Below, one piece after another: positions 10,975 to 38,382 of a stretch of DNA of 64,000 nt. The stretch lies in the IMG/VR virus record IMGVR_UViG_3300033074_001783, positions 1 to 64,000 of that record. One strand, written 5' to 3'. The notes beneath the pieces were generated by a model, which did no database searches, was not told the origin of the DNA, and was given only the letters and a program-made list of their open reading frames with translations. This DNA is from a virus (taxonomy: Duplodnaviria > Caudoviricetes). The translations under genes and the position numbers were made by a program. Within the stretch, counting starts at the first letter, position 1. Each line of letters opens with the position of its first letter.

Positions 10975-11829
10975 ATGAGAAACGACATGCGACATGTGCT
11001 CATTGACCGACCCAGACACAAAAGTTGGGAGAATGGACACGAGCGCAACAAATACAAATCAAATGATGAAGAGGCTCCCAACAAAGAAACCATTCGGCCC
11101 AAAGGGCGCGGAGTTGATCGTAAAGACCTGTCTGACAACCTCGCTCCTTTGTTTCGGTTTTTGAAAAGCAACGTTGGAAGACCTTGGAACAAGGTGTATT
11201 CAGAGATTTGTGAAAACATCTCTCTTGATTCCACGCTGCAACGACACATTCTTGTGCATGTCAAACATGCGGTTCATCAAGATGTTGAAATGGGGGAAGA
11301 CGGACTTCCGTATTCTGTTGTCAAATATTACTACAACGATAACCGGCCACTGATGAGCAGAGGTCATTGGGACAGTTTTTACGTGAATCCCAACACGGGC
11401 ATTCTTTGTGTTTGTCCAAGACAAAAGAAAGAAACAAAGAAAAGCCAAGTGACGCTTATCACATTACCTGACAACAAACTGATTCAATATCGTCTGGTCA
11501 CCAAGAGTAAGTGGTCTGACAAAACTCGCAGTTTTGTACGAGTCACAAGTTGGTGGGGAATTGAGTTGGCAAAGAGACCCGAACCAACAAAACACACGAT
11601 TTACACAAGAGAATGGGATTGTGTCAAGGGTTGTCTGGTCGTCACAAAGACAGAAGAGAAGTTCTATGAAGACGGCAGAGACGTACTGTTTGACAAAGAG
11701 CTCAGAAACCTGTCGGAACAAGAATCGTTCACCTACTACAACAACTACAGGCTTTACGCAATCAGGATGTGGCAACTGAGTTCCAAAGAGCTCAAAACAA
11801 TCAGGAGAACGATTGGTGAGGTCGTCTGA
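10975..11829 (+). CDS. Hypothetical basic protein
   Basis: Long ORF with GAGG upstream. Confidence 0.75.
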   Translation: MRNDMRHVLIDRPRHKSWENGHERNKYKSNDEEAPNKETIRPKGRGVDRKDLSDNLAPLFRFLKSNVGRPWNKVYSEICENISLDSTLQRHILVHVKHAVHQDVEMGEDGLPYSVVKYYYNDNRPLMSRGHWDSFYVNPNTGILCVCPRQKKETKKSQVTLITLPDNKLIQYRLVTKSKWSDKTRSFVRVTSWWGIELAKRPEPTKHTIYTREWDCVKGCLVVTKTEEKFYEDGRDVLFDKELRNLSEQESFTYYNNYRLYAIRMWQLSSKELKTIRRTIGEVV

Positions 11830-12064
11830 ACTGAAAGTTGGCGAAGCCTATAAAGTACATCACAAAACCAACTGTTTCATGGTTAGAGCAGAAATACCAA
11901 AAGAAAACGTAACAAGCAAATTTCAAATATATTTGTCAGAAAACTCAACTTTCTTAGTTGTTCAAGAGTTTGAAAACGGTAACCTTCTTAAAGTGCTGAT
12001 GCAAGATGGAATCAGGTGGTTCTATCGTAGTTCAACTGCCGCTTTGAATTTTTTACCTGCCTAA
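11813..12064 (+). CDS. Hypothetical protein
   Basis: ORF. Confidence 0.55.
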   Translation: MVRSSELKVGEAYKVHHKTNCFMVRAEIPKENVTSKFQIYLSENSTFLVVQEFENGNLLKVLMQDGIRWFYRSSTAALNFLPA

Positions 12065-12067
12065 CCT

Positions 12068-12096
12068 TTCACAATTCCAATTCTGACTGCTACTAT
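12068..12096 (+). promoter_or_regulatory. Early promoter giving a leaderless mRNA that starts at ATG 12103
   Basis: TTCACA-N17-TACTAT-N6-ATG, same geometry as at least 7 other promoters in the window. Confidence 0.75.
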
Positions 12097-12102
12097 AGTC
12101 AC

Positions 12103-13113
12103 ATGGACAACATCATCAATCACGAAATGTAGGGCTTAGTTGACAATGGCTGCGAAGACACAGAGTGCAAACTCTACGTGATCACGCACCAAGATCTAAC
12201 TCTCCAGTACGCCATTCCTCAAACAATGCACGCTGCTCTTGAGTTTGGGATTGCATTCCCAGACGAGTATCAAAAGTGGCATTCGCGTTCCAATTCCATT
12301 ATCACACTTGCAACAAAAAACGAAAGAGCTCTTTGGGAGTTTTCAAGACTCCTTGAGAAAAAAGGACTTAAATATGTTCCTTTTTACGAACCTGATGTTG
12401 GAATGGCTCTTACAGCTTTAGCCATTGTTCCAAATCCAATGGTGAAAAGAGTTTGTATGGGCATTCCTCTGTGTGGGAAATACGTCAATCCTTTGGCTCA
12501 AGAGAGACTTGAAAAAACTTGGGATTTGGTGGAAAAGATGCAAACCTGTTATCAAACCAAAGGTATCAACATGCTTGAGCATGGTTTGATGGTGAAAGAC
12601 AGATTGTTTGATCTTCTTGAAACCATGAGAGATCCTTCAAGATCTTACAGGTATCAATGGCGTTTGCCAAGTTGGTTTCTTGAACACAGCGCCAAAATAT
12701 CTAAAGATATTTGCAGTGACTTTACTTTGGCGAAGTACACAACCATGCACGATTGTGGCAAACCAAAAGTGAGAATTGAGAGAGAAGACGGCAAAGCGTC
12801 TTACCCCAACCACGCTGAAGCTAGCTACGAAGAGTGGCTGTCTATCTCGGATGACGCAGAGATTGCAGAGCTCATTCGTAGAGACATGCAGATTCACTTG
12901 CTCAAATCAGAAGAAATTCCTGAGTTCTGTCGCAACAAGAAAACTGCTCTTTCTTTGTTGATTTCTGGATTGGCCGAGATCCATGCAAATGAGCAACTTT
13001 TTGGAGGGTTTAATTCCGATGGATTCAAAATCAAATGGAAACAGATTGATAAAAAAGGAAAAGGAATTTGTCAATTTCTGTTTGGTTGGGTCAAAGTGAC
13101 CAGTGGAACCTAA
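12103..13113 (+). CDS. Peptidyl-tRNA hydrolase 2 (Pth2)-like domain fused to an HD phosphohydrolase; in-frame TAG at codon 10 (12130-12132)
   Basis: Pth2-like KLYVITHQDL..QTMHAALEF..FYEPD..LTALA; HD motifs EHG..MHDCGKP..NHA; the frame from ATG 12103 is continuous apart from one TAG. Confidence 0.8.
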
Positions 13114-13127
13114 CCAATAGGAGAGAA
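13102..13127 (+). repeat. 26-bp exact dispersed repeat, copy 1
   Basis: AGTGGAACCTAACCAATAGGAGAGAA, also at 38396-38421(-) and 51988-52013(-). Confidence 0.9.
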
Positions 13128-13130
13128 GAA

Positions 13131-14207
13131 ATGGTATCAAAACTGCTTACTAGAAATGGTTTTAGAGATGCGTGCCTGAAGAGAGATGGGTACAAATGCG
13201 TGAATTGTGGGGCACCAGCGACCTACGATAAAAATGGGGAGGTTGACAACCTTGACATTCATCACATCATAGAAAGAAGGTTGTTTACAGCGAAAGCAGA
13301 GTTTGGAGGCTATTTCGTTGACAACGGCGCCTGCGTTTGCGAGCCATGTCACATACTTGCAGAACAAACACTCTTGTCTTGCGATGCTCTCAGAGAGAAA
13401 TGTGGAATCAAAACCATTGTTCTTCCGTTGCATCTGTACCATGACCAAGAGTATGACAAATGGGGCAATCCTGTTCTCCCAAACGGAACTAGATTGAAGG
13501 GAGACCTGTTTTATGATCTCTCTGTTCAAAAGGTTCTTGAACCTGTTCTCCATCTGTTTTCTGAGAAGGTCAAATATCCCAGAACTCCTCATCTTCCTTG
13601 GAGTCCGGGTGTTGGCAAAGATGACAGGGTGCTTGATTCCACAGATTGCTTCGTTGGAAAAGAAATTGTCATCACAGAGAAGATGGATGGAGAGTGTACA
13701 ACCATCGGAAGAACTTATTCTCATGCAAGATCTGTAGAGAGTGGATCTCATCCATCAAGAGATTGGATCAAAGCTTTGCAAGGTCGCATTGGTTACGACA
13801 TTCCAGAAGGTTGGAGACTTTGTGGAGAGAACTTGTTTGCCAAACATTCTCTTGGATATAACAACCTCAAAGACTTCTTTCTTCTCTTTTCCATTTGGAA
13901 CGAGAACAACATTTGTTTGAGTTGGGATGAAACAGTTGAATGGGCTTCTCTATTGAATCTGCACATTGTCCCAACGATATACAGAGGAGTCTGGGACGAA
14001 AAGAATACAAGGAATCTGAAGATTGATTCTAACGTGCAAGAAGGTTACGTTGTGCGGCTGGCTGATTCATTCAGCTACGGTGACTTCAGAAAGAGTGTAG
14101 CGAAGTGGGTGAGACCTTCCCATGTGACGACACACGGCGGTTGGATGAGATCTGAACTTATACCAAACAAGCTGATAGTTACCCAAGATGTTGAAAGAAA
14201 TAATTGA
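13131..14207 (+). CDS. HNH nuclease domain fused to an ATP-dependent RNA ligase (Rnl2-type)
   Basis: N-term RDGYKCVNCG..HHI..NG..CEPCH; ligase motifs KYPRTPHL, TEKMDG, GENL, EGYVVR, AKWVR. Confidence 0.85.
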   Translation: MVSKLLTRNGFRDACLKRDGYKCVNCGAPATYDKNGEVDNLDIHHIIERRLFTAKAEFGGYFVDNGACVCEPCHILAEQTLLSCDALREKCGIKTIVLPLHLYHDQEYDKWGNPVLPNGTRLKGDLFYDLSVQKVLEPVLHLFSEKVKYPRTPHLPWSPGVGKDDRVLDSTDCFVGKEIVITEKMDGECTTIGRTYSHARSVESGSHPSRDWIKALQGRIGYDIPEGWRLCGENLFAKHSLGYNNLKDFFLLFSIWNENNICLSWDETVEWASLLNLHIVPTIYRGVWDEKNTRNLKIDSNVQEGYVVRLADSFSYGDFRKSVAKWVRPSHVTTHGGWMRSELIPNKLIVTQDVERNN

Positions 14208-14621
14208 TGAAGTTGTTGAAGTGCTACAAAAAGTAAAACAAACGCATTTCACAAAATTGGACGACAAGGCACGAGCGTGGGCTAAATTGCTTTTTTGAGG
14301 AACTTATCAAGGGAAGAAGTAGCGGATAGAACTGGTGTTCCTGTTGATTATGTCAAAGAATTGTTTCAAGAGTTTTCAGAAGAAGTGCGCGCTTCTACTC
14401 CTGTTGGTGAACGACAAGAGAAAGTAAAAGAAATGTACAAGCAAGGTTTTCAACCAAAACGTCTGTCGGCAATTTTTCGTATACCGTTGCACATCATTGA
14501 TCAATGGGTTGGACGAGGTGTGGAACTCGTGCGTGGAAAGAACGATTTTGAACGAGATGTTGGGGGTGAAAAACTTCCATCTTTCAAAGATATCTTTAAT
14601 TCAAGACACAACAAACCATGA
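14188..14621 (+). CDS. HTH-like protein split by a -1 frameshift at CTT-TTT-TGA (~14295)
   Basis: ORF 14188-14298 has a late-promoter motif 6 nt upstream and continues in the -1 frame (LSREEVADRTGVP..). Confidence 0.5.
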
Positions 14622-14768
14622 TGCCACTTATAAAAACAACCAACATTCTGGCCATTGGTGGTTGCGACGCTTACGTGCTAACAAAAGTTTCTTTTTAACG
14701 AATCAGAGAACACTATCACGGTTTCCATCAATCAAGATCCAATCTCAGATGATGGCTCTGTTAATCTA

Positions 14769-14981
14769 ATGGGTTGGATCAGAGCCAGCTACGAAACATC
14801 AAGTCCACCAGATCCGAGCATTCACATCAAACAGATGGCTCAGTATGACACCCTCTTGTATTACTACGAGTTAGAAAAACCAGTTTTGATTGAATGCGAA
14901 TTTGGTGCTTGTGATCATGAAAGTAGGGATCAAAGTATGATTTTAGAGATCAAATACAAGGCAAAGAAGCTTCACTGCTGA
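14769..14981 (+). CDS. Hypothetical protein
   Basis: ORF. Confidence 0.5.
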   Translation: MGWIRASYETSSPPDPSIHIKQMAQYDTLLYYYELEKPVLIECEFGACDHESRDQSMILEIKYKAKKLHC

Positions 14982-15020
14982 ATCTTTCAAAACCTTCCTG
15001 CTGTGTGGTAGGATCGGTTT

Positions 15021-15338
15021 ATGCGCACCCCACAAGACGTGTTTTGCAACCGCTATCACAAGCACAGCAGCGACACTGGATTTCTCATCGGCGGCATGTA
15101 CGACGAAGATCTCACCTCTGTGATCGCTTCTCTACACGATGACAGGCATTGGGACAACAACGGTAAGTCCGTTGAGAACGACTTCTTGTGCGACGATGAT
15201 GGAGTTCACGTTCGCGGAGAGTTTCCTGTCTACATCCGTCAAGAAGTAATGATCGGAGATTACCAGTTTTTTCAGTTCTACGTCTCAGATCGCGATGGCT
15301 ATTGGTGGACAGAAGCCAAGAATGTGAGGATTGCATGA
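15021..15338 (+). CDS. Hypothetical protein
   Basis: ORF; leaderless promoter TTCAAA-N17-TAGGAT-N6-ATG. Confidence 0.7.
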   Translation: MRTPQDVFCNRYHKHSSDTGFLIGGMYDEDLTSVIASLHDDRHWDNNGKSVENDFLCDDDGVHVRGEFPVYIRQEVMIGDYQFFQFYVSDRDGYWWTEAKNVRIA

Positions 15339-15955
15339 CCACGGAAAACAAAGAAACGTTCATGGCAAGGCTTAGGCCGATGCTTGCTCCAAGCGAGCTT
15401 CGTAAAATTGAACTTGCCTACATCCTAACCAAAGACGGACACAGGAGCCAGACAAGAAAACAGTTGGGACTTGATGGTCAACCAATCAGGTATTTTGAAC
15501 ATCCAAGGCGCGTCGCAATTGTTGTCATGGATGAGTGCAAAATCTACTCCCCAAGCTTCATCATCACTGCGCTTGGACATGATCTTCTTGAAGACAGTGA
15601 AATGACGCCAGAACTTCTTGAGGATTGTTTTGGCGCGGAAGTGACGAAGTGGATCAAGTCTCTGTCCAAAGTGCCAAAAGAAGGTTACTACGAACGACTG
15701 AAGGCATATGGCTCTTGGCAAGCAATGTTTATCAAACTTTGCGACAGACTGGATAACCTTCGTGACATGGAAGGTTGCGACGATGGTTTCAAACGCAAGC
15801 AGTGCCTTGAAACCATGCAATCCATCTACCCGCTTGCCGGAGAACTTCTGGTTAAATGCCCAGACAAGGATGTTCAGCGGACAGCGGAAGCTTTGGCTGT
15901 AAAGATTAGAATTAGGGTTGAAGAAATCTTTCAAAGCTTGTCAGCGGGATCATAA
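15335..15955 (+). CDS. RelA/SpoT-type HD hydrolase (small alarmone hydrolase, Mesh1-like)
   Basis: H..QTRK, YFEHP, GHDLLED, IKLCDRLDNL. Confidence 0.85.
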   Translation: MTTENKETFMARLRPMLAPSELRKIELAYILTKDGHRSQTRKQLGLDGQPIRYFEHPRRVAIVVMDECKIYSPSFIITALGHDLLEDSEMTPELLEDCFGAEVTKWIKSLSKVPKEGYYERLKAYGSWQAMFIKLCDRLDNLRDMEGCDDGFKRKQCLETMQSIYPLAGELLVKCPDKDVQRTAEALAVKIRIRVEEIFQSLSAGS

Positions 15956-15967
15956 AATAGAACCATC

Positions 15968-16357
15968 ATGCACATGCGTTATAAACCTTGGTATTTGCTG
16001 ATGTTGTCCTACTACTCAAGGGCAAATCAACACCTTCTTGAAAACGCCAAGCATGTTGCGTGCTACCGATGTAAACGTCTTGTGTCTCTTGAAGAGGTTG
16101 TGTATGGAACAGAAGACACAGGACCAAAAGGATTCTTTAATGGGGCAAAAACAGGAATCCACAAAACCTGTGGATTTGATACTTTGTTGCCATCGGAAGT
16201 GTTTTACAAACGTCTTCCTTTGAAAAACCAAGATTTCTTGGTTTCAATGCACAATCTCTTCTTCCAAGAAGAGAAAAAGTTTTCTTTTGGGCGAATGATC
16301 GCTCCGATGTATCCTCACAATCCTTACCGTAAAACTCTGATTCACCCGGTTCCATAG
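15968..16357 (+). CDS. Hypothetical protein; its TAG stop lies inside the suppressor tRNA
   Basis: ORF with CYRC and HKTC. Confidence 0.6.
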   Translation: MHMRYKPWYLLMLSYYSRANQHLLENAKHVACYRCKRLVSLEEVVYGTEDTGPKGFFNGAKTGIHKTCGFDTLLPSEVFYKRLPLKNQDFLVSMHNLFFQEEKKFSFGRMIAPMYPHNPYRKTLIHPVP

Positions 16358-16423
16358 CTCAGTGGCTAGAGCGCTGGATTCTAAACCCAAGGGTCGCGGG
16401 TTCAAATCCCGCTGGAACCGCCA
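16348..16423 (+). tRNA. Amber suppressor tRNA (anticodon CTA)
   Basis: Exact 76-nt cloverleaf: GGTTCCA/TGGAACC, GCTC/GAGC, loop TT-CTA-AA (anticodon 16381-16383), GCGGG-TTCAAAT-CCCGC, GCCA; anticodon stem has two mismatches. Confidence 0.85.
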
Positions 16424-16425
16424 TT

Positions 16426-16722
16426 ATGACCAACAATGAAGAACTTACAAAAGTAAAAATAAAACTGTATTTTGCAAGAGGAATGACGATTAGCACAATT
16501 GCCAATCGTTTAAATAGACCGCGCTCCTATGTTGTGAATGTTTTGGGCATCACTTCTATAAGCAACAGGGCAGGTTTTGCTTTTTCTGATATACCCGCAA
16601 GCGACAAACCAAACAAAGCGAATGAACTGTGTGAACTTGGATATACCAGAAGTGAAACTGCACGTATGTTAGGAGTAACGGACAATGTAGTTTCAAAATG
16701 GATAACGGACAAAAGATTCTAA
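16426..16722 (+). CDS. Tandem HTH DNA-binding protein
   Basis: Two HTH signatures: GMTISTIANRLNRPRSYV and GYTRSETARMLGVTDNVVSKW. Confidence 0.75.
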   Translation: MTNNEELTKVKIKLYFARGMTISTIANRLNRPRSYVVNVLGITSISNRAGFAFSDIPASDKPNKANELCELGYTRSETARMLGVTDNVVSKWITDKRF

Positions 16723-16879
16723 TCGCTGTTTCTGTTGTTTTAATGTTTTTGGGTGCTTTTCTTTTCAAGAAAGACATTGACAAAACCCTTGATGGACAAA
16801 GCAAAAAACTGCCAATTACAGGCCCTTGCCTGTACGCTTTTGGTTTTGCTTTATTTGTCACCGTAACACTAAGGTAAAA

Positions 16880-17584
16880 ATGAAAATAAAGTTATATTGG
16901 GATATGGACGGTGTATTGGCAGATTGGGATGAAAGGTGTCACTATTACTTGGGGAATAACCCAGAATTTTTGCGTCTTGACGCCAAAGAGTGTTTGGCCA
17001 TTGACGAACTCTTGGAGCATCACGAGCAAGACAAAAAACTGTTTGACGGAATGCCTTGGATTGGTCTTGTAGACCGACTAGAATATCCAATGCATCTTTG
17101 TGATTTTATGGACACTTATTGTGCTCCATCAAAATACAATCTTGCCTATAGAGAAGCAAGGCAACGCTTCAGATCTTTCAAAGAAGCATGTTTGCCTCAT
17201 TATTTCTTCAAAGAACTGAGACCTTATGAAGATGCAATTGAGCTTCTTTCGTTCGGTCAAACGATTGACCCTGTTCCGACAATTCTAACTGCTCCAATGG
17301 GCAAAGATGCGAACGACCTTGAACTGAGATGCAGACAGCAAAAGTTTCAATGGATGTCTCATCATTTCGCAGATCAGTTTGCATTCAACTTCATTTGCAC
17401 AGAAGACAAAAACGCTTATGCCTTCAAAGAAGAAGGTGTAGTAAAAGTGTTAATTGATGACAGGTTCAAGAACCTGAAACACTGGATGAACGACGGCGGC
17501 ATTCCTGTTCTACACAAAGAAACTTCTGCCACCAAAGATCAACTATACGAGATTTACCTCAAGTACAAGGATAACGTCAGATGA
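16880..17584 (+). CDS. HAD-family 5'(3')-deoxyribonucleotidase-like protein
   Basis: DMDGVLAD, ILTAP, LIDD. Confidence 0.8.
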   Translation: MKIKLYWDMDGVLADWDERCHYYLGNNPEFLRLDAKECLAIDELLEHHEQDKKLFDGMPWIGLVDRLEYPMHLCDFMDTYCAPSKYNLAYREARQRFRSFKEACLPHYFFKELRPYEDAIELLSFGQTIDPVPTILTAPMGKDANDLELRCRQQKFQWMSHHFADQFAFNFICTEDKNAYAFKEEGVVKVLIDDRFKNLKHWMNDGGIPVLHKETSATKDQLYEIYLKYKDNVR

Positions 17585-20990: not shown

Positions 20991-21455
20991 ATGAGTTATT
21001 ATCATTCAGACAGAGATGACATCGTTTCAAAGTTGGTTACAATTGTCATAGTCCTGCTGATCGTTCTGGGGCTTGGTGCAATCGGTATGTGTGTGAAATG
21101 CGCAGATACCGCGTCTGAACCAGTTAAACAAGCTGCACAAATTGTGGAGCGAACAATAAACGCAGACAACGTGATTTACAACTACGAGTGGTTCCACCAG
21201 CAATACCAAAATGCCCAAAACTATCAACGGCAAATTGATCAGAAAGAACAGCGCGTAACAGAAATGCAACGTTCCCTTCCGCAAGATCGTACTCAGTGGA
21301 CCAGAGAAGATCGGGCGGAACTGTTTCAGCTTCAAACAGAACTCAGTGGTCTCAGGGCCATGCGTTCAACTGTGGTCTCAGATTACAACGCCCATGCAAG
21401 CATGGCAAATCGCAGCATTTTCCTCGGCGGCTCTCTTCCACCTTCACTACAATAG
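20991..21455 (+). CDS. Membrane-anchored coiled-coil protein
   Basis: N-terminal TM followed by a Q/E-rich coiled coil. Confidence 0.75.
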   Translation: MSYYHSDRDDIVSKLVTIVIVLLIVLGLGAIGMCVKCADTASEPVKQAAQIVERTINADNVIYNYEWFHQQYQNAQNYQRQIDQKEQRVTEMQRSLPQDRTQWTREDRAELFQLQTELSGLRAMRSTVVSDYNAHASMANRSIFLGGSLPPSLQ

Positions 21456-35476: not shown

Positions 35477-36265
35477 CTAGCCATTTACAAAATGGTCGTG
35501 GATCGCTTTCAACCAATCCGCAGATTGTGGATTTAGTTCAGCTTGAAGAAGATAACCAGATAGAACAGAAAGTAAAATACGAATTGCAGGATAAATGTTG
35601 GCAACCAAAACCATTTTATAAAACAAGCTTTCACACTTCGTTCGCGCGTTGTCCTTGTTGCCAAGATAATCTTGATCCCCAAGAAAAGTTTTGCTTGATT
35701 GGAATCCATGATCCCACAAAGTCTTGTAGATTGACAAAGAAACCACGTCAGTTGGAATCCATGAAACAGCTTTGTTGTTTACAGTTTTCAAAACAGAACA
35801 AGCTAAATTTATTGCATGTTCTAGTTGCACTGCTTTAAAATTGATTGCGATTGGTTTGAATAGTTCAAGTTTTTTATCTAGGTTTTGGGCGGCTCCAAGA
35901 GAAAAACTTGCAACAGTTGGAAACGTTAAAGACTCTTGCTGAAAAGCAACTGCTGTTTGTTTTCTGGCAAACTCTTGGTACTCGGTTAGAGCAGCTTTGG
36001 ACAAAGACACGAGATTGAAAGAGTCCAAATAGGATTGATCAAAAGATATTTTTTCTTTTGTTTTTGTTTCAACCGTTTGTTTTATTTCTTGAACCAACTC
36101 CAGTCTCACGCCAAGTCGGTCATAAAGATTGTTTACTTTGTTAGCAATCAATCTAGCATAGGTTGAAGATTGAAGTTCCGTGGGAGGTGCTTCCCCATAA
36201 TTCAAAACGCTGTAGATATCTTCTTGCAAAGTTTTGTGTACAAGTTTTTCAATGAGTTTTTGCAT
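35477..36265 (-). CDS. Putative virion protein
   Basis: Leader MQKLIEKLVHKTLQE. Confidence 0.6.
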   Translation of the reverse strand: MQKLIEKLVHKTLQEDIYSVLNYGEAPPTELQSSTYARLIANKVNNLYDRLGVRLELVQEIKQTVETKTKEKISFDQSYLDSFNLVSLSKAALTEYQEFARKQTAVAFQQESLTFPTVASFSLGAAQNLDKKLELFKPIAINFKAVQLEHAINLACSVLKTVNNKAVSWIPTDVVSLSIYKTLWDHGFQSSKTFLGDQDYLGNKDNARTKCESLFYKMVLVANIYPAIRILLSVLSGYLLQAELNPQSADWLKAIHDHFVNG

Positions 36266-37675: not shown

Positions 37676-38382
37676 TACAACACCTGTAGGATGGCTTGTG
37701 TCATAGTTTCAACATTTCCATCATTTATTTCATTAGAGGCGCACCATATTACTCTTCTTAGTTTAATTGTCCCAACTGAGATGATCTCTTTCTCTGATTC
37801 AGCGTAGTGCCTTAGTTCTGGTATTTCAGCAATGCCAGCAGGATTCAAAATGAATTTACCTTGGTTGTCTCCTGTTGCAGCAACAAGTAGACAGGCAAAT
37901 TTGCCTTGGTCTACATCCAAAAAACCGCCAGAGTTAAGTGCTTTGGCAAGGTTGACAAGCTTTTCTTTGTCTCCCCACAAAGTCCAAGAGGCATGGGGTC
38001 TTCCTTTGGGGGTAAAAGTGCCAGATTGGGATTGTTCTACATGTTCAAGCGAGAACATACTTTGTCCAGTTATTGTTGACATAACATTTTCATCAACACC
38101 AAACAAAAATCTATACGCGTAAGCATTTGGTGATTTTAAGATGTCTTGGTATTCCCCGCGATTAGCCAAAGCAGCCAAGGATGGGGCATTCATGCCCAAA
38201 GCATCCATATCCCCTATGTGATGTTGTTTTACAACATTGTAAAGGTTTTTTTCAGGTGCGGTATCAACTTCTGGTTTCTTTGGATCTGGTTTTCCTCTTT
38301 CTTGACCAAACAGCACTTGCCCATATGGTCCTTCTTGAAGAACCCCCATAACCATGTTTTCAATCAGTAAATTCAACTTCAT
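37675..38382 (-). CDS. Putative ADP-ribosyltransferase (R-S-E clade), probably virion-packaged
   Basis: AYRFL ... ASWT ... SEKEI; leader MKLNLLIENMVMGVLQE. Confidence 0.55.
   Translation of the reverse strand: MKLNLLIENMVMGVLQEGPYGQVLFGQERGKPDPKKPEVDTAPEKNLYNVVKQHHIGDMDALGMNAPSLAALANRGEYQDILKSPNAYAYRFLFGVDENVMSTITGQSMFSLEHVEQSQSGTFTPKGRPHASWTLWGDKEKLVNLAKALNSGGFLDVDQGKFACLLVAATGDNQGKFILNPAGIAEIPELRHYAESEKEIISVGTIKLRRVIWCASNEINDGNVETMTQAILQVL

What the first reader, a model, noticed from the sequence alone, without database searches (positions are those of the whole stretch)
12068..16423. Amber-gated translation-rescue module: in-frame UAG in a Pth2-HD gene plus a phage-encoded CUA suppressor tRNA
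Seen: a promoter with the phage's standard leaderless geometry (TTCACA-N17-TACTAT-N6-ATG) starts at ATG 12103. The frame reads MDNIINHEM-TAG(12130)-GLVDNGCEDTECKLYVITHQDL... and continues unbroken to 13113. The track's GTG start (12178) has no RBS and cuts into the first Pth2 strand (KLYVI). About 4 kb downstream is a 76-nt tRNA with anticodon CUA. TAG is still an ordinary stop here (capsid, scaffold and many others) and the structural genes have no internal TAGs, so this is not whole-genome code-15 recoding. Established: Pth2 releases peptides from peptidyl-tRNA, and prfB is autoregulated by an internal stop. Inference: the UAG is a switch, so Pth2-HD is made only when the suppressor is present or RF1 termination is failing, which is when peptidyl-tRNA piles up. 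The downstream HNH-RNA ligase and (p)ppGpp hydrolase fit a translation-rescue operon.
Basis: partly seen in the sequence, partly recalled or inferred. Interest (0 to 1): 0.92.

Follow-up and report, generated by a model that had tools for sequence, protein, structure and literature searches.

The report
Amber-stop-gated phage tRNA-enzyme gene with suppressor
This 119-kb phage uses the normal genetic code, yet codon 10 of a gene for a two-part tRNA-end enzyme is a UAG stop and the phage carries its own UAG-reading tRNA nearby; dozens of distant phages, some lab-grown, share this layout, so the enzyme is probably made only when that tRNA overrides the stop.

Summary
ATG 12103 lies behind a promoter geometry the phage reuses: 6 copies in the window against 0.03 expected. 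Codon 10 is TAG (12130) and the frame then runs open to 13113. A cloverleaf tRNA with anticodon CUA lies at 16348-16423.

- 86 of 113 distinct Pth2-like or HD gene starts from related phage loci show ATG, 1-14 further codons, an in-frame TAG (never TAA or TGA), then 0-12 codons before the conserved domain.
- Only 35 of 1204 control ORFs in the same loci show this pattern (p about 3e-81).
- One of the 86 has a canonical start codon between the TAG and the domain.
- The base after the TAG is A or G in 77 of 86 and never T.
- A CUA tRNA or tRNA-like element lies on the same strand in 66 of 87 loci, often within 100 bp.

The genome is not code 15. TAG ends 14 of 140 genes, and I found no other gated gene.

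The protein model is a Pth2 fold joined to an HD domain closest to that of a class II tRNA A-adding enzyme.

Suppressor-dependent translation is therefore well supported. Its purpose (feedback, timer or rescue) is inferred.

I found no published description. The same scan has noted this module in at least nine other genomes.

The parts
12068..12096 (+). Promoter-like site: -35 TTCACA (12068-12073), 17-nt spacer with TG before the -10, -10 TACTAT (12091-12096). It lies 6 nt before ATG 12103, the leaderless geometry.
   Evidence: The exact geometry TTCAMA-N17-TANNNT-N6-ATG occurs 6 times in the window against 0.03 expected.
12103..12129 (+). Nine-codon leader (M D N I I N H E M) of the Pth2-HD ORF.
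   Evidence: Residues 1-17 of the model have pLDDT below 50. Relatives have ATG-started leaders of 2-15 codons, mostly 2-4.
12130..12132 (+). In-frame UAG, codon 10: the gate. The next base is G.
   Evidence: An equivalent TAG is present in the closest homologues L001, L002 and L004 and in 86 of 113 distinct family gene starts.
12133..13113 (+). Remainder of the ORF: Pth2-like domain (residues about 17-124, nt about 12151-12474) and HD domain (residues about 131-327, nt about 12493-13083), ending at TAA 13111-13113.
   Evidence: Pfam PTH2 at residues 22-112, 20.8 bits. phrog_14850 3e-58. AlphaFold2 model with pLDDT 90.3. Pth2 fold Z 14.3 and A-adding-enzyme HD region Z 14.5. Invariant H160, H216-D217, H237, D261, H265.
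13131..14207 (+). HNH + RNA ligase gene with its own GGAG ribosome-binding site. A neighbour, not itself gated.
   Evidence: Pfam RNA_ligase 5e-30 and HNH weak. Sequence.
14986..15023 (+). Second promoter of the same leaderless type (TTCAAA-N17-TAGGAT-N6-ATG 15021). It heads the small ORF 15021-15338.
15335..15955 (+). HD_4 (RelA/SpoT-type hydrolase-like) gene. It is ATGA-coupled to the preceding ORF, has a GAGG ribosome-binding site and has no TAG gate.
   Evidence: Pfam HD_4 36.1 bits, cutoff 27.2. Sequence.
16348..16423 (+). tRNA with anticodon CUA (amber suppressor), encoded G73 and CCA end, and a weak anticodon stem (27:43 and 31:39 unpaired).
   Evidence: ARAGORN. Sequence. 55 identical positions with the CUA tRNA that lies 9 bp after the homologous gene in L004.

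Best explanation
The gene at 12103-13113 is one ORF for a two-domain enzyme that probably works on tRNA 3' ends. The N-terminal domain has the Pth2 fold. The C-terminal HD domain is closest to the HD region of a class II tRNA A-adding enzyme. Translation starts at the 5'-terminal AUG of a leaderless mRNA and meets UAG at codon 10. With release factor alone, only a 9-residue peptide is made. The full protein is made only when the phage's own tRNA(CUA) at 16348-16423 inserts an amino acid at that UAG. Enzyme output therefore follows the amount of intact, charged suppressor tRNA. This lock (early UAG) and key (CUA tRNA on the same strand) is a conserved module of many large standard-code phages, and each Pth2-like or HD gene carries its own UAG whether the two are fused or separate. 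Shown here: the sequence features, their conservation, the lack of any alternative start codon, the suppression-friendly base after the UAG, and the tRNA linkage. Inferred: that suppression happens in vivo, which amino acid is inserted, and why. My preferred purpose (about 0.35 on its own) rests on the idea that these enzymes act on tRNA ends. Gating them through a dedicated sentinel tRNA would give a self-limiting loop, formally like prfB autoregulation: if tRNAs are over-processed or uncharged, synthesis of the enzyme stops. The confidence given is for suppressor-dependent translation, not for the purpose.
For: 1. ATG 12103 is a real start by the phage's own convention: the promoter-ATG geometry occurs 6 times in the window against 0.03 expected.
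2. GTG 12178 has no Shine-Dalgarno, and gene callers disagree on the start (311 aa from GTG 12178; 295 aa in the protein collection).
3. K23-L24-Y25, upstream of the GTG, are conserved in homologues with synonymous codon differences (AAA/AAG, CTC/CTA, TAC/TAT). They lie in the first strand of a confident model and inside the Pfam PTH2 match.
4. The three closest homologues with DNA (54-57% identity) all have ATG, 9-13 codons, an in-frame TAG and then the KLY strand. In L004 the first canonical start after the TAG is 25 codons downstream, about 20 codons inside the conserved domain.
5. Across related loci, 86 of 113 distinct Pth2-like or HD gene starts are TAG-gated against 35 of 1204 control ORFs (Fisher p 2.7e-81). 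The stop is always TAG, and 1 of 86 has ATG/GTG/TTG between the TAG and the domain.
6. The base after the gate TAG is A 62, G 15, C 9, T 0. After natural TAG stops in the same loci it is T 56, A 51, G 46, C 44 (p 2e-13). From established knowledge, a purine after UAG favours suppression and U favours termination.
7. ARAGORN finds CUA tRNAs in 50 of 87 loci, all 57 on the gene's strand. Adding tRNA-like CUA elements gives 66 of 87, with 58 within 3 kb. Some lie 9-55 bp after the gene or 85-300 bp before it.
8. The window's tRNA resembles the one beside the homologous gene in L004.
9. Cultured phages show the same gate: GAP32 and Arash; XacN1, RsoM2USA and pT24.
10. The genome is otherwise standard code.
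Against: There is no expression, ribosome-profiling or peptide evidence. Suppression, charging of this tRNA and the inserted amino acid are unknown. The window's tRNA has a weak anticodon stem with only three pairs, so it may suppress poorly. It lies 3.2 kb downstream behind another promoter, not adjacent as in many relatives. About a quarter of family members have ordinary starts, and some of these still sit beside a CUA tRNA (L036, L050, L060), so the gate is not obligatory. Roughly a quarter of loci show no CUA element within the DNA held; many are fragments. The feedback purpose rests only on fold-level guesses about activity. The Pth2-like domain scores below Pfam's threshold and its catalytic residues were not verified.
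Confidence: 0.75

Rival explanations
1. Timer or feed-forward gate. The UAG simply delays or conditions synthesis of the enzyme until the phage tRNA set, reported by the suppressor, has accumulated. The enzyme does not act back on the suppressor. This would be a one-gene version of the code-switch timing proposed for recoded phages.
For: Same structural evidence as the best explanation. The gene sits in the early, tRNA-rich, leaderless-promoter region. The delay idea is published for recoded phages (bioRxiv 10.1101/2021.08.26.457843).
Against: A generic timer does not explain why only these two enzyme families carry the gate, in the window's genome and among long ORFs of related loci (2.9% background). 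It also does not explain why the tRNA stays beside HD genes that have lost the gate.
Confidence: 0.25
2. The UAG senses failing RF1 termination or peptidyl-tRNA build-up, so a peptidyl-tRNA hydrolase is induced exactly when rescue is needed.
For: Pth2 fold. From established knowledge, short leaders ending in a stop resemble minigenes that provoke peptidyl-tRNA drop-off, and prfB sets a precedent for a stop-codon sensor.
Against: A dedicated suppressor tRNA linked on the same strand in most loci makes the tRNA, not RF1 shortage, the obvious input. The stand-alone HD genes carry the same gate although they are not peptidyl-tRNA hydrolases. Peptidyl-tRNA hydrolase activity is itself unverified (Pfam below cutoff).
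Confidence: 0.1
3. The protein starts downstream, at GTG 12178 or ATG 12226. ATG 12103...TAG is then a separate mini-ORF (a regulatory upstream ORF or chance), possibly with reinitiation at a non-canonical codon just after the stop; ATT follows the TAG in many relatives.
For: Gene callers chose these starts. Many Pth2-type relatives have ATT directly after the TAG.
Against: There is no Shine-Dalgarno before GTG 12178. The conserved residues and first strand lie upstream of it. 85 of 86 gated relatives have no ATG/GTG/TTG between the TAG and the domain. The codon after the TAG is often AAC, AAT, GTT, GGC or CTx, which cannot start translation. In this window it is GGC. An upstream ORF would have no reason to be in frame every time, nor to end only in TAG.
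Confidence: 0.07
4. Genome-wide TAG reassignment (code 15), or a sequencing error or pseudogene.
For: A CUA tRNA is present.
Against: Code-11 ORFs cover 93% of the genome and TAG ends 14 genes, mostly followed by T. No other gene is interrupted. The one suspicious in-frame pair (36310-35477 and 35467-34280) is two separate genes, because homologues of the second are stand-alone proteins of about 400 aa. The TAG is conserved in homologues at 35-57% identity, which excludes an error or decay.
Confidence: 0.02

Closest known systems
Stop-codon-recoded phages with phage-encoded suppressor tRNAs (TAG read as Gln, 'code 15'; Lak, crAss-like and others; bioRxiv 10.1101/2021.08.26.457843)
   Same: A phage infecting a standard-code host carries a CUA tRNA and has in-frame TAG in its own coding sequence. 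Translation of those genes is proposed to depend on the tRNA.
   Different: Recoded phages have TAG scattered through many, mostly late, structural and lysis genes and show low code-11 coding density. Here one early gene has a single TAG at a fixed place, just after the start. TAG remains a normal stop for 14 genes, and the client genes are physically linked to the tRNA.
prfB (RF2) autoregulation by an early in-frame stop codon (established knowledge)
   Same: An early in-frame stop in the mRNA of a translation-related factor makes synthesis depend on how that stop is decoded.
   Different: prfB uses a +1 frameshift at UGA, senses RF2 itself, and needs no dedicated tRNA. Here the frame is unchanged and the input is a separate suppressor tRNA. 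Whether the enzyme feeds back on suppression is unknown.
Orphan CUA suppressor tRNAs reported in cultured jumbo phages (XacN1, PMC5852040; RsoM2USA, PMC8504454; GAP32 record annotation)
   Same: Same class of tRNA in standard-code phages. The XacN1 authors state they could not identify target genes.
   Different: Those reports looked for extensions after annotated amber stops. The target proposed here is an N-terminal UAG upstream of the annotated start, and it is present in XacN1 ORF364, in two RsoM2USA genes, and in pT24, GAP32 and Arash.
Archaeal/eukaryotic Pth2, and the HD domain of class II CCA/A-adding enzymes (PDB 1wn2, 3erj, 3wfo)
   Same: Fold matches. Pth2: Z 14.3, rmsd 2.2 A over 106 residues. 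A. aeolicus A-adding enzyme: Z 14.5, rmsd 4.0 A over 167 residues, with HDCGKP aligned to HDIGKP.
   Different: The sequence is very divergent (Pfam PTH2 below cutoff). There is no nucleotidyltransferase head domain. The fusion or adjacency of these two domains is a phage-specific arrangement (phrog_14850).
Lambda bar minigenes and peptidyl-tRNA hydrolase (established knowledge)
   Same: Very short ORFs ending in a stop are linked functionally to peptidyl-tRNA hydrolase.
   Different: bar minigenes are stand-alone and toxic when host Pth is limiting. Here the mini-leader is in frame with, and continuous with, the enzyme ORF, and is paired with a suppressor tRNA.

Membership tests
Peptidyl-tRNA hydrolase PTH2 (PF01981) | Sequence match above Pfam's gathering score | tested here: not met
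   20.8 bits against a cutoff of 23, residues 22-112. A profile of the family against PDB sequences gives 2zv3 at E 0.0013.
Peptidyl-tRNA hydrolase PTH2 (PF01981) | Pth2 alpha/beta fold | tested here: met
   Foldseek 3erj_A TM 0.76 by target. VIA 1wn2_A Z 14.3, rmsd 2.2 A, 106 aligned, model residues 17-124.
Peptidyl-tRNA hydrolase PTH2 (PF01981) | Catalytic residues (Lys and Asp of archaeal Pth2, recalled from memory) and hydrolase activity | tested here: inconclusive
   The invariant E96-P97-D98-x-G100 aligns near the D-A-G motif of 2zv3. The Gly/Lys-rich loop of canonical Pth2 was not identified. Activity cannot be tested here.
HD-domain metal-dependent phosphohydrolases | H...HD...H...D metal-binding motif and the helical HD fold | tested here: met
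   Invariant H160, H216-D217, H237, D261, H265 in 16 homologues. Many HD-domain structures match at Z 7-14.5.
Class II tRNA CCA/A-adding enzymes | Nucleotidyltransferase head domain plus neck/body and, in some, an HD region | tested here: not met
   Only the region matching chain residues 225-448 of 3wfo is present (Z 14.5). No polymerase head domain was found in Pfam or the model. It resembles the tRNA-handling HD part but is not a CCA-adding enzyme.
Amber suppressor tRNA | Cloverleaf tRNA with anticodon CUA | tested here: met
   ARAGORN, 16348-16423, anticodon at position 34. Canonical D and T arms and an encoded CCA end; the anticodon stem has only three pairs.
Amber suppressor tRNA | Expressed, aminoacylated, and able to decode UAG on the ribosome | not testable with these tools
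No biochemical data are available.
Code-15 (TAG-recoded) phages | Many genes with internal TAG, poor coding density under code 11, and TAG rarely used as a stop | tested here: not met
   93% coverage by code-11 genes; TAG ends 14 of 140 genes; only one gene has an internal TAG.
   Window. Family: 86 of 113 against 35 of 1204 controls.
   Window: 3.2 kb downstream, + strand. Family: 66 of 87 loci, 58 within 3 kb; all 57 ARAGORN CUA tRNAs are on the gene's strand.

The most novel reading that the evidence does not exclude
The CUA tRNA is a dedicated 'sentinel' whose only client in this genome is the enzyme gene. The Pth2-like/HD enzyme strips or repairs tRNA 3' ends, for example reversing blocks that host defence toxins place on tRNA. 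Its own synthesis requires a charged, intact sentinel tRNA, which gives a self-limiting safety loop or interlock. This would be a natural tRNA-operated translational switch and would explain the orphan suppressor tRNAs of standard-code jumbo phages.
Probability: 0.3. Interest if true: 0.9.

Novelty: new variant of a known kind. Interest (0 to 1): 0.8.

Why it matters
Suppressor tRNAs have been reported in cultured standard-code jumbo phages with no known target; the XacN1 paper says so explicitly (PMC5852040). This module supplies a specific, conserved target, so the question becomes testable in lab phages of Salmonella, Cronobacter, Xanthomonas, Ralstonia and Tenacibaculum. It would be a natural single-gene amber-suppression switch, a design otherwise known from synthetic biology. 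It could also be an evolutionary stepping stone toward whole-genome TAG recoding. In practice, these genes are mis-annotated in public records as truncated or fragmented ORFs, and in phage Arash the CUA tRNA is labelled tRNA-Phe. Annotation pipelines should look for the pattern.

Tried and rejected
- Megablast of 11000-17000 against phage records found no match.
- The search for related loci with the single protein found nothing. The alignment-based scan worked.
Conservation of the TAG in homologues takes the place of read confirmation.
- I looked for a readthrough-stimulating RNA structure after the TAG. The fold of 12103-12222 has z = -0.01, so none is indicated.
- I looked for other suppressor clients in this genome. 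Three TAG-ended genes are in frame with the next gene: 20991-21455, 36310-35477 and 47134-45050. This is about the one-third expected by chance, and all three TAGs are followed by T. For the pair at 35477, tblastn against phages found nothing. Homologues of the downstream gene are stand-alone proteins of about 400 aa, some carrying PF16724. This lead is rejected.
- I looked for backup stops after TAG-ended genes. The distance to the next in-frame stop does not differ from other genes (p 0.59).
- ARAGORN at default settings missed CUA tRNA-like elements in low-GC relatives. They were found by pattern and by relaxed settings, so their status as tRNAs is less certain.
- The window's CUA tRNA is not an obvious derivative of the phage's own tRNA-Gln(CUG). 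The inserted amino acid remains open.
- Six literature searches and four papers read gave no description of this module.

Full report
**What is in the sequence**

The window is the first 64 kb of a single 118,963-bp phage contig with 41% G+C.

- The frame stays open for another 326 codons to TAA 13111-13113.
- ARAGORN reports seven tRNAs in the genome, all in the window. One is a 76-nt tRNA with anticodon CUA at 16348-16423 on the same strand.

**Is ATG 12103 a real start?**

- The exact geometry TTCAMA-N17-TANNNT-N6-ATG occurs six times in the window against 0.03 expected from shuffles. Five of the six head predicted genes or ORFs, and the sixth is 12068-12105. The phage therefore reuses a promoter that places the transcription start at or next to the ATG, giving leaderless mRNA.
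- GTG 12178, the only canonical start between the TAG and the conserved domain, has no Shine-Dalgarno.
- Gene callers disagree on the start: 311 aa from GTG 12178, and 295 aa in the public protein collection.
- A start at GTG 12178 would remove K23-L24-Y25. These residues are part of the first beta strand (24-29) of a confident AlphaFold2 model (mean pLDDT 90.3). They also lie inside the Pfam PTH2 match, whose first model position aligns to residue 22.
- Residues 1-17, including the UAG position, are predicted disordered. Any inserted amino acid should therefore be tolerated.

**The comparative test**

The closest homologues, at 54-57% identity, had ragged N-termini in the database. Their DNA explains why.

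- L001: ATG, 11 codons, TAG, 7 codons, then the annotated GTG.
- L002: ATG, 12 codons, TAG.
- L004: ATG, 8 codons, TAG. The first canonical start is 25 codons later, about 20 codons inside the conserved domain.

An alignment-seeded scan of viral contigs returned 80 more loci. These carry Pth2-HD fusions, HD-then-Pth2 pairs, separated genes, or HD alone.

- After removing duplicates, 86 of 113 Pth2-like or HD gene starts have an ATG, 1-14 further codons (mostly 1-3), an in-frame TAG, and 0-12 codons before the conserved domain.
- The stop is TAG in every such case.
- Where the two domains are separate genes, each has its own TAG.
- In 1204 other long ORFs of the same loci the pattern occurs 35 times (2.9%; Fisher p 2.7e-81).
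- Only 1 of 86 has ATG, GTG or TTG between the TAG and the domain. Codons just after the TAG show synonymous variation under conserved residues. That segment is therefore translated in this frame without a start of its own.
- The base after the gate TAG is A in 62, G in 15, C in 9 and T in none. Natural TAG stops in the same loci show T 56, A 51, G 46, C 44 (p 2e-13). From established knowledge of context effects, a purine after UAG favours suppression and U favours termination.
- In this window the gate TAG is followed by G, and 7 of the 14 natural TAG stops are followed by T.

**Linkage to the tRNA**

- ARAGORN finds a CUA tRNA in 50 of 87 loci examined. All 57 such tRNAs are on the strand of the gene.
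- Several lie 9-55 bp after the gene (L004, L019, L023, L064, L066) or directly before it (L006, L073).
- Low-GC relatives with no ARAGORN call carry a tRNA-like element with a CUA loop, T arm and acceptor strand 85-300 bp upstream of the gated gene. These were found by pattern and by relaxed ARAGORN settings.
- Counting these, 66 of 87 loci have a same-strand CUA element, 58 of them within 3 kb. The opposite-strand pattern count (25 against 86) gives the background.
- The window's tRNA shares 55 positions with the one next to the homologous gene in L004, including the acceptor stem and T arm. Gene and tRNA therefore appear to travel together.
- Some relatives with an ungated HD gene still keep the tRNA next to it: L036, L050 and L060.

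**Not a recoded genome**

- A simple gene model covers 93% of the genome under code 11. TAG ends 14 of 140 genes, including the major head protein gene.
- No other gene combines a promoter-ATG with an early TAG.
- One in-frame pair looked suspicious: 36310-35477, TAG, three codons, then GTG 35467. It is two genes, because homologues of the second are stand-alone proteins of about 400 aa.
- ORF coverage of the related 20-kb loci gains no more from reading TAG as sense than from reading TGA as sense.

**What the protein is**

- Residues about 17-124 adopt the Pth2 fold (1wn2 Z 14.3, rmsd 2.2 A, 106 aligned; 3erj TM 0.76). The sequence score is below Pfam's threshold.
- Residues about 131-327 are an HD domain with invariant H160, H216-D217, H237, D261 and H265.
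- The best structural match for the HD domain is the Aquifex A-adding enzyme, a class II tRNA nucleotidyltransferase (3wfo Z 14.5, 167 aligned). It stands above generic HD hydrolases at Z 10.7 or below, and one of those is the tRNA-binding HD domain of bacterial GlyRS. HDCGKP aligns to the enzyme's HDIGKP.
- Both halves therefore resemble proteins that handle the tRNA 3' end. This is a fold-level inference, not a demonstrated activity.
- Neighbours: an HNH-RNA ligase at 13131-14207 with its own GGAG site; a second leaderless promoter at 14986; and a RelA/SpoT-type HD_4 gene at 15335-15955, ATGA-coupled to a small ORF.

**Mechanism**

The supported part is that full-length protein requires decoding of UAG at codon 10, and the phage's CUA tRNA is the evident decoder. 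Placing the stop right after the start means a failed attempt costs only a few residues and leaves no truncated domain.

The purpose is inferred.

- Only these two tRNA-end enzyme families carry the gate, each with its own UAG, and the tRNA remains beside ungated copies. I therefore favour a specific coupling between the enzymes and the state of this tRNA, a sentinel or feedback loop formally like prfB, over a generic timer.
- I could not obtain reads or RNA data. No stimulatory RNA structure follows the TAG.

**Known or new?**

- Phage suppressor tRNAs and TAG recoding are known, but as a genome-scale property of mostly late genes. I found no paper describing an N-terminal UAG in Pth2/HD genes linked to the tRNA.
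- The XacN1 paper reports two CUA tRNAs and states that no target genes could be identified. XacN1 ORF364 in fact begins ATG-AAG-TAG upstream of its annotated start.
- RsoM2USA, pT24, GAP32 and Arash carry the gate too. In GAP32 the HD gene has its TAG at codon 47.
- Earlier notes of this same scan describe the module in at least nine other genomes with the same reading. I reached the result independently before reading them, and they are not independent evidence.

**Verdict**

This is a further, somewhat atypical member of an apparently unpublished module: the leader is longer, the promoter is leaderless, the tRNA lies 3.2 kb away, and the genome is 119 kb rather than jumbo-sized.

Noticed in passing
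window 16348-16423; L007, L009, L013, L079: The window's CUA tRNA has unpaired 27:43 and 31:39 positions (anticodon arm GGA-TTCTAAA-CCC). The same 31:39 mismatch, or an effective 9-nt loop, recurs in CUA elements of several relatives, so it may be a conserved trait rather than decay.
   Followed up: partly
L007, L009, L010, L013, L020, L030, L038 (about 85-1070 bp upstream of the gated gene): Low-GC relatives carry short, odd tRNA-like elements with a CUA loop, a normal T arm and an acceptor strand. ARAGORN misses them at default settings and calls two of them as 67-71 nt tRNAs at relaxed settings.
   Followed up: partly
window 15968-16357 and 16348-16423: The ORF 15968-16357 ends at a TAG that lies inside the 5' part of the CUA tRNA gene. 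The next ORF starts at ATG 16426, three bases after the tRNA's CCA.
   Followed up: no
window 13102-13127, and upstream of the minus-strand genes ending at 38382 and 51980: Near-identical AATAGGAGAGAAGAA-type ribosome-binding elements precede three unrelated genes, although many neighbouring genes are leaderless.
   Followed up: partly
window, many + strand early genes (e.g. 1234, 6331, 6614, 15021): The -10 box is often TAGnnT placed 6 nt before the ATG. This puts an in-frame TAG four codons upstream of many starts, which is a source of false 'TAG-bounded ORF' signals.
   Followed up: yes
L085 (Cronobacter phage GAP32) 4309-4848: The HD gene has a good ribosome-binding site and a normal ATG, but an in-frame TAG at codon 47 followed by G. 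The record annotates the region as four small fragments.
   Followed up: partly
L086 (Salmonella phage Arash) 5298-5372 and 4160-4312: The CUA tRNA is annotated as tRNA-Phe, and the gated Pth2-like gene (ATG-CTG-TAG...) is annotated only as a 50-aa 'peptidyl-tRNA hydrolase' fragment.
   Followed up: partly
window 47134-45050 and 45013-43070 (minus strand): A 694-aa gene ends in TAG (followed by T) and is in frame with the major head protein gene 12 codons downstream, which has its own AGGGAG site and ATG. This is probably coincidence, but a low level of readthrough fusion cannot be excluded while a suppressor is present.
   Followed up: partly
L003/L004, L001: Relatives place NUDIX, NAPRTase, EF-Ts-like and RNase T-like genes around the module, so it sits in a translation and nucleotide-metabolism neighbourhood.
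   Followed up: no
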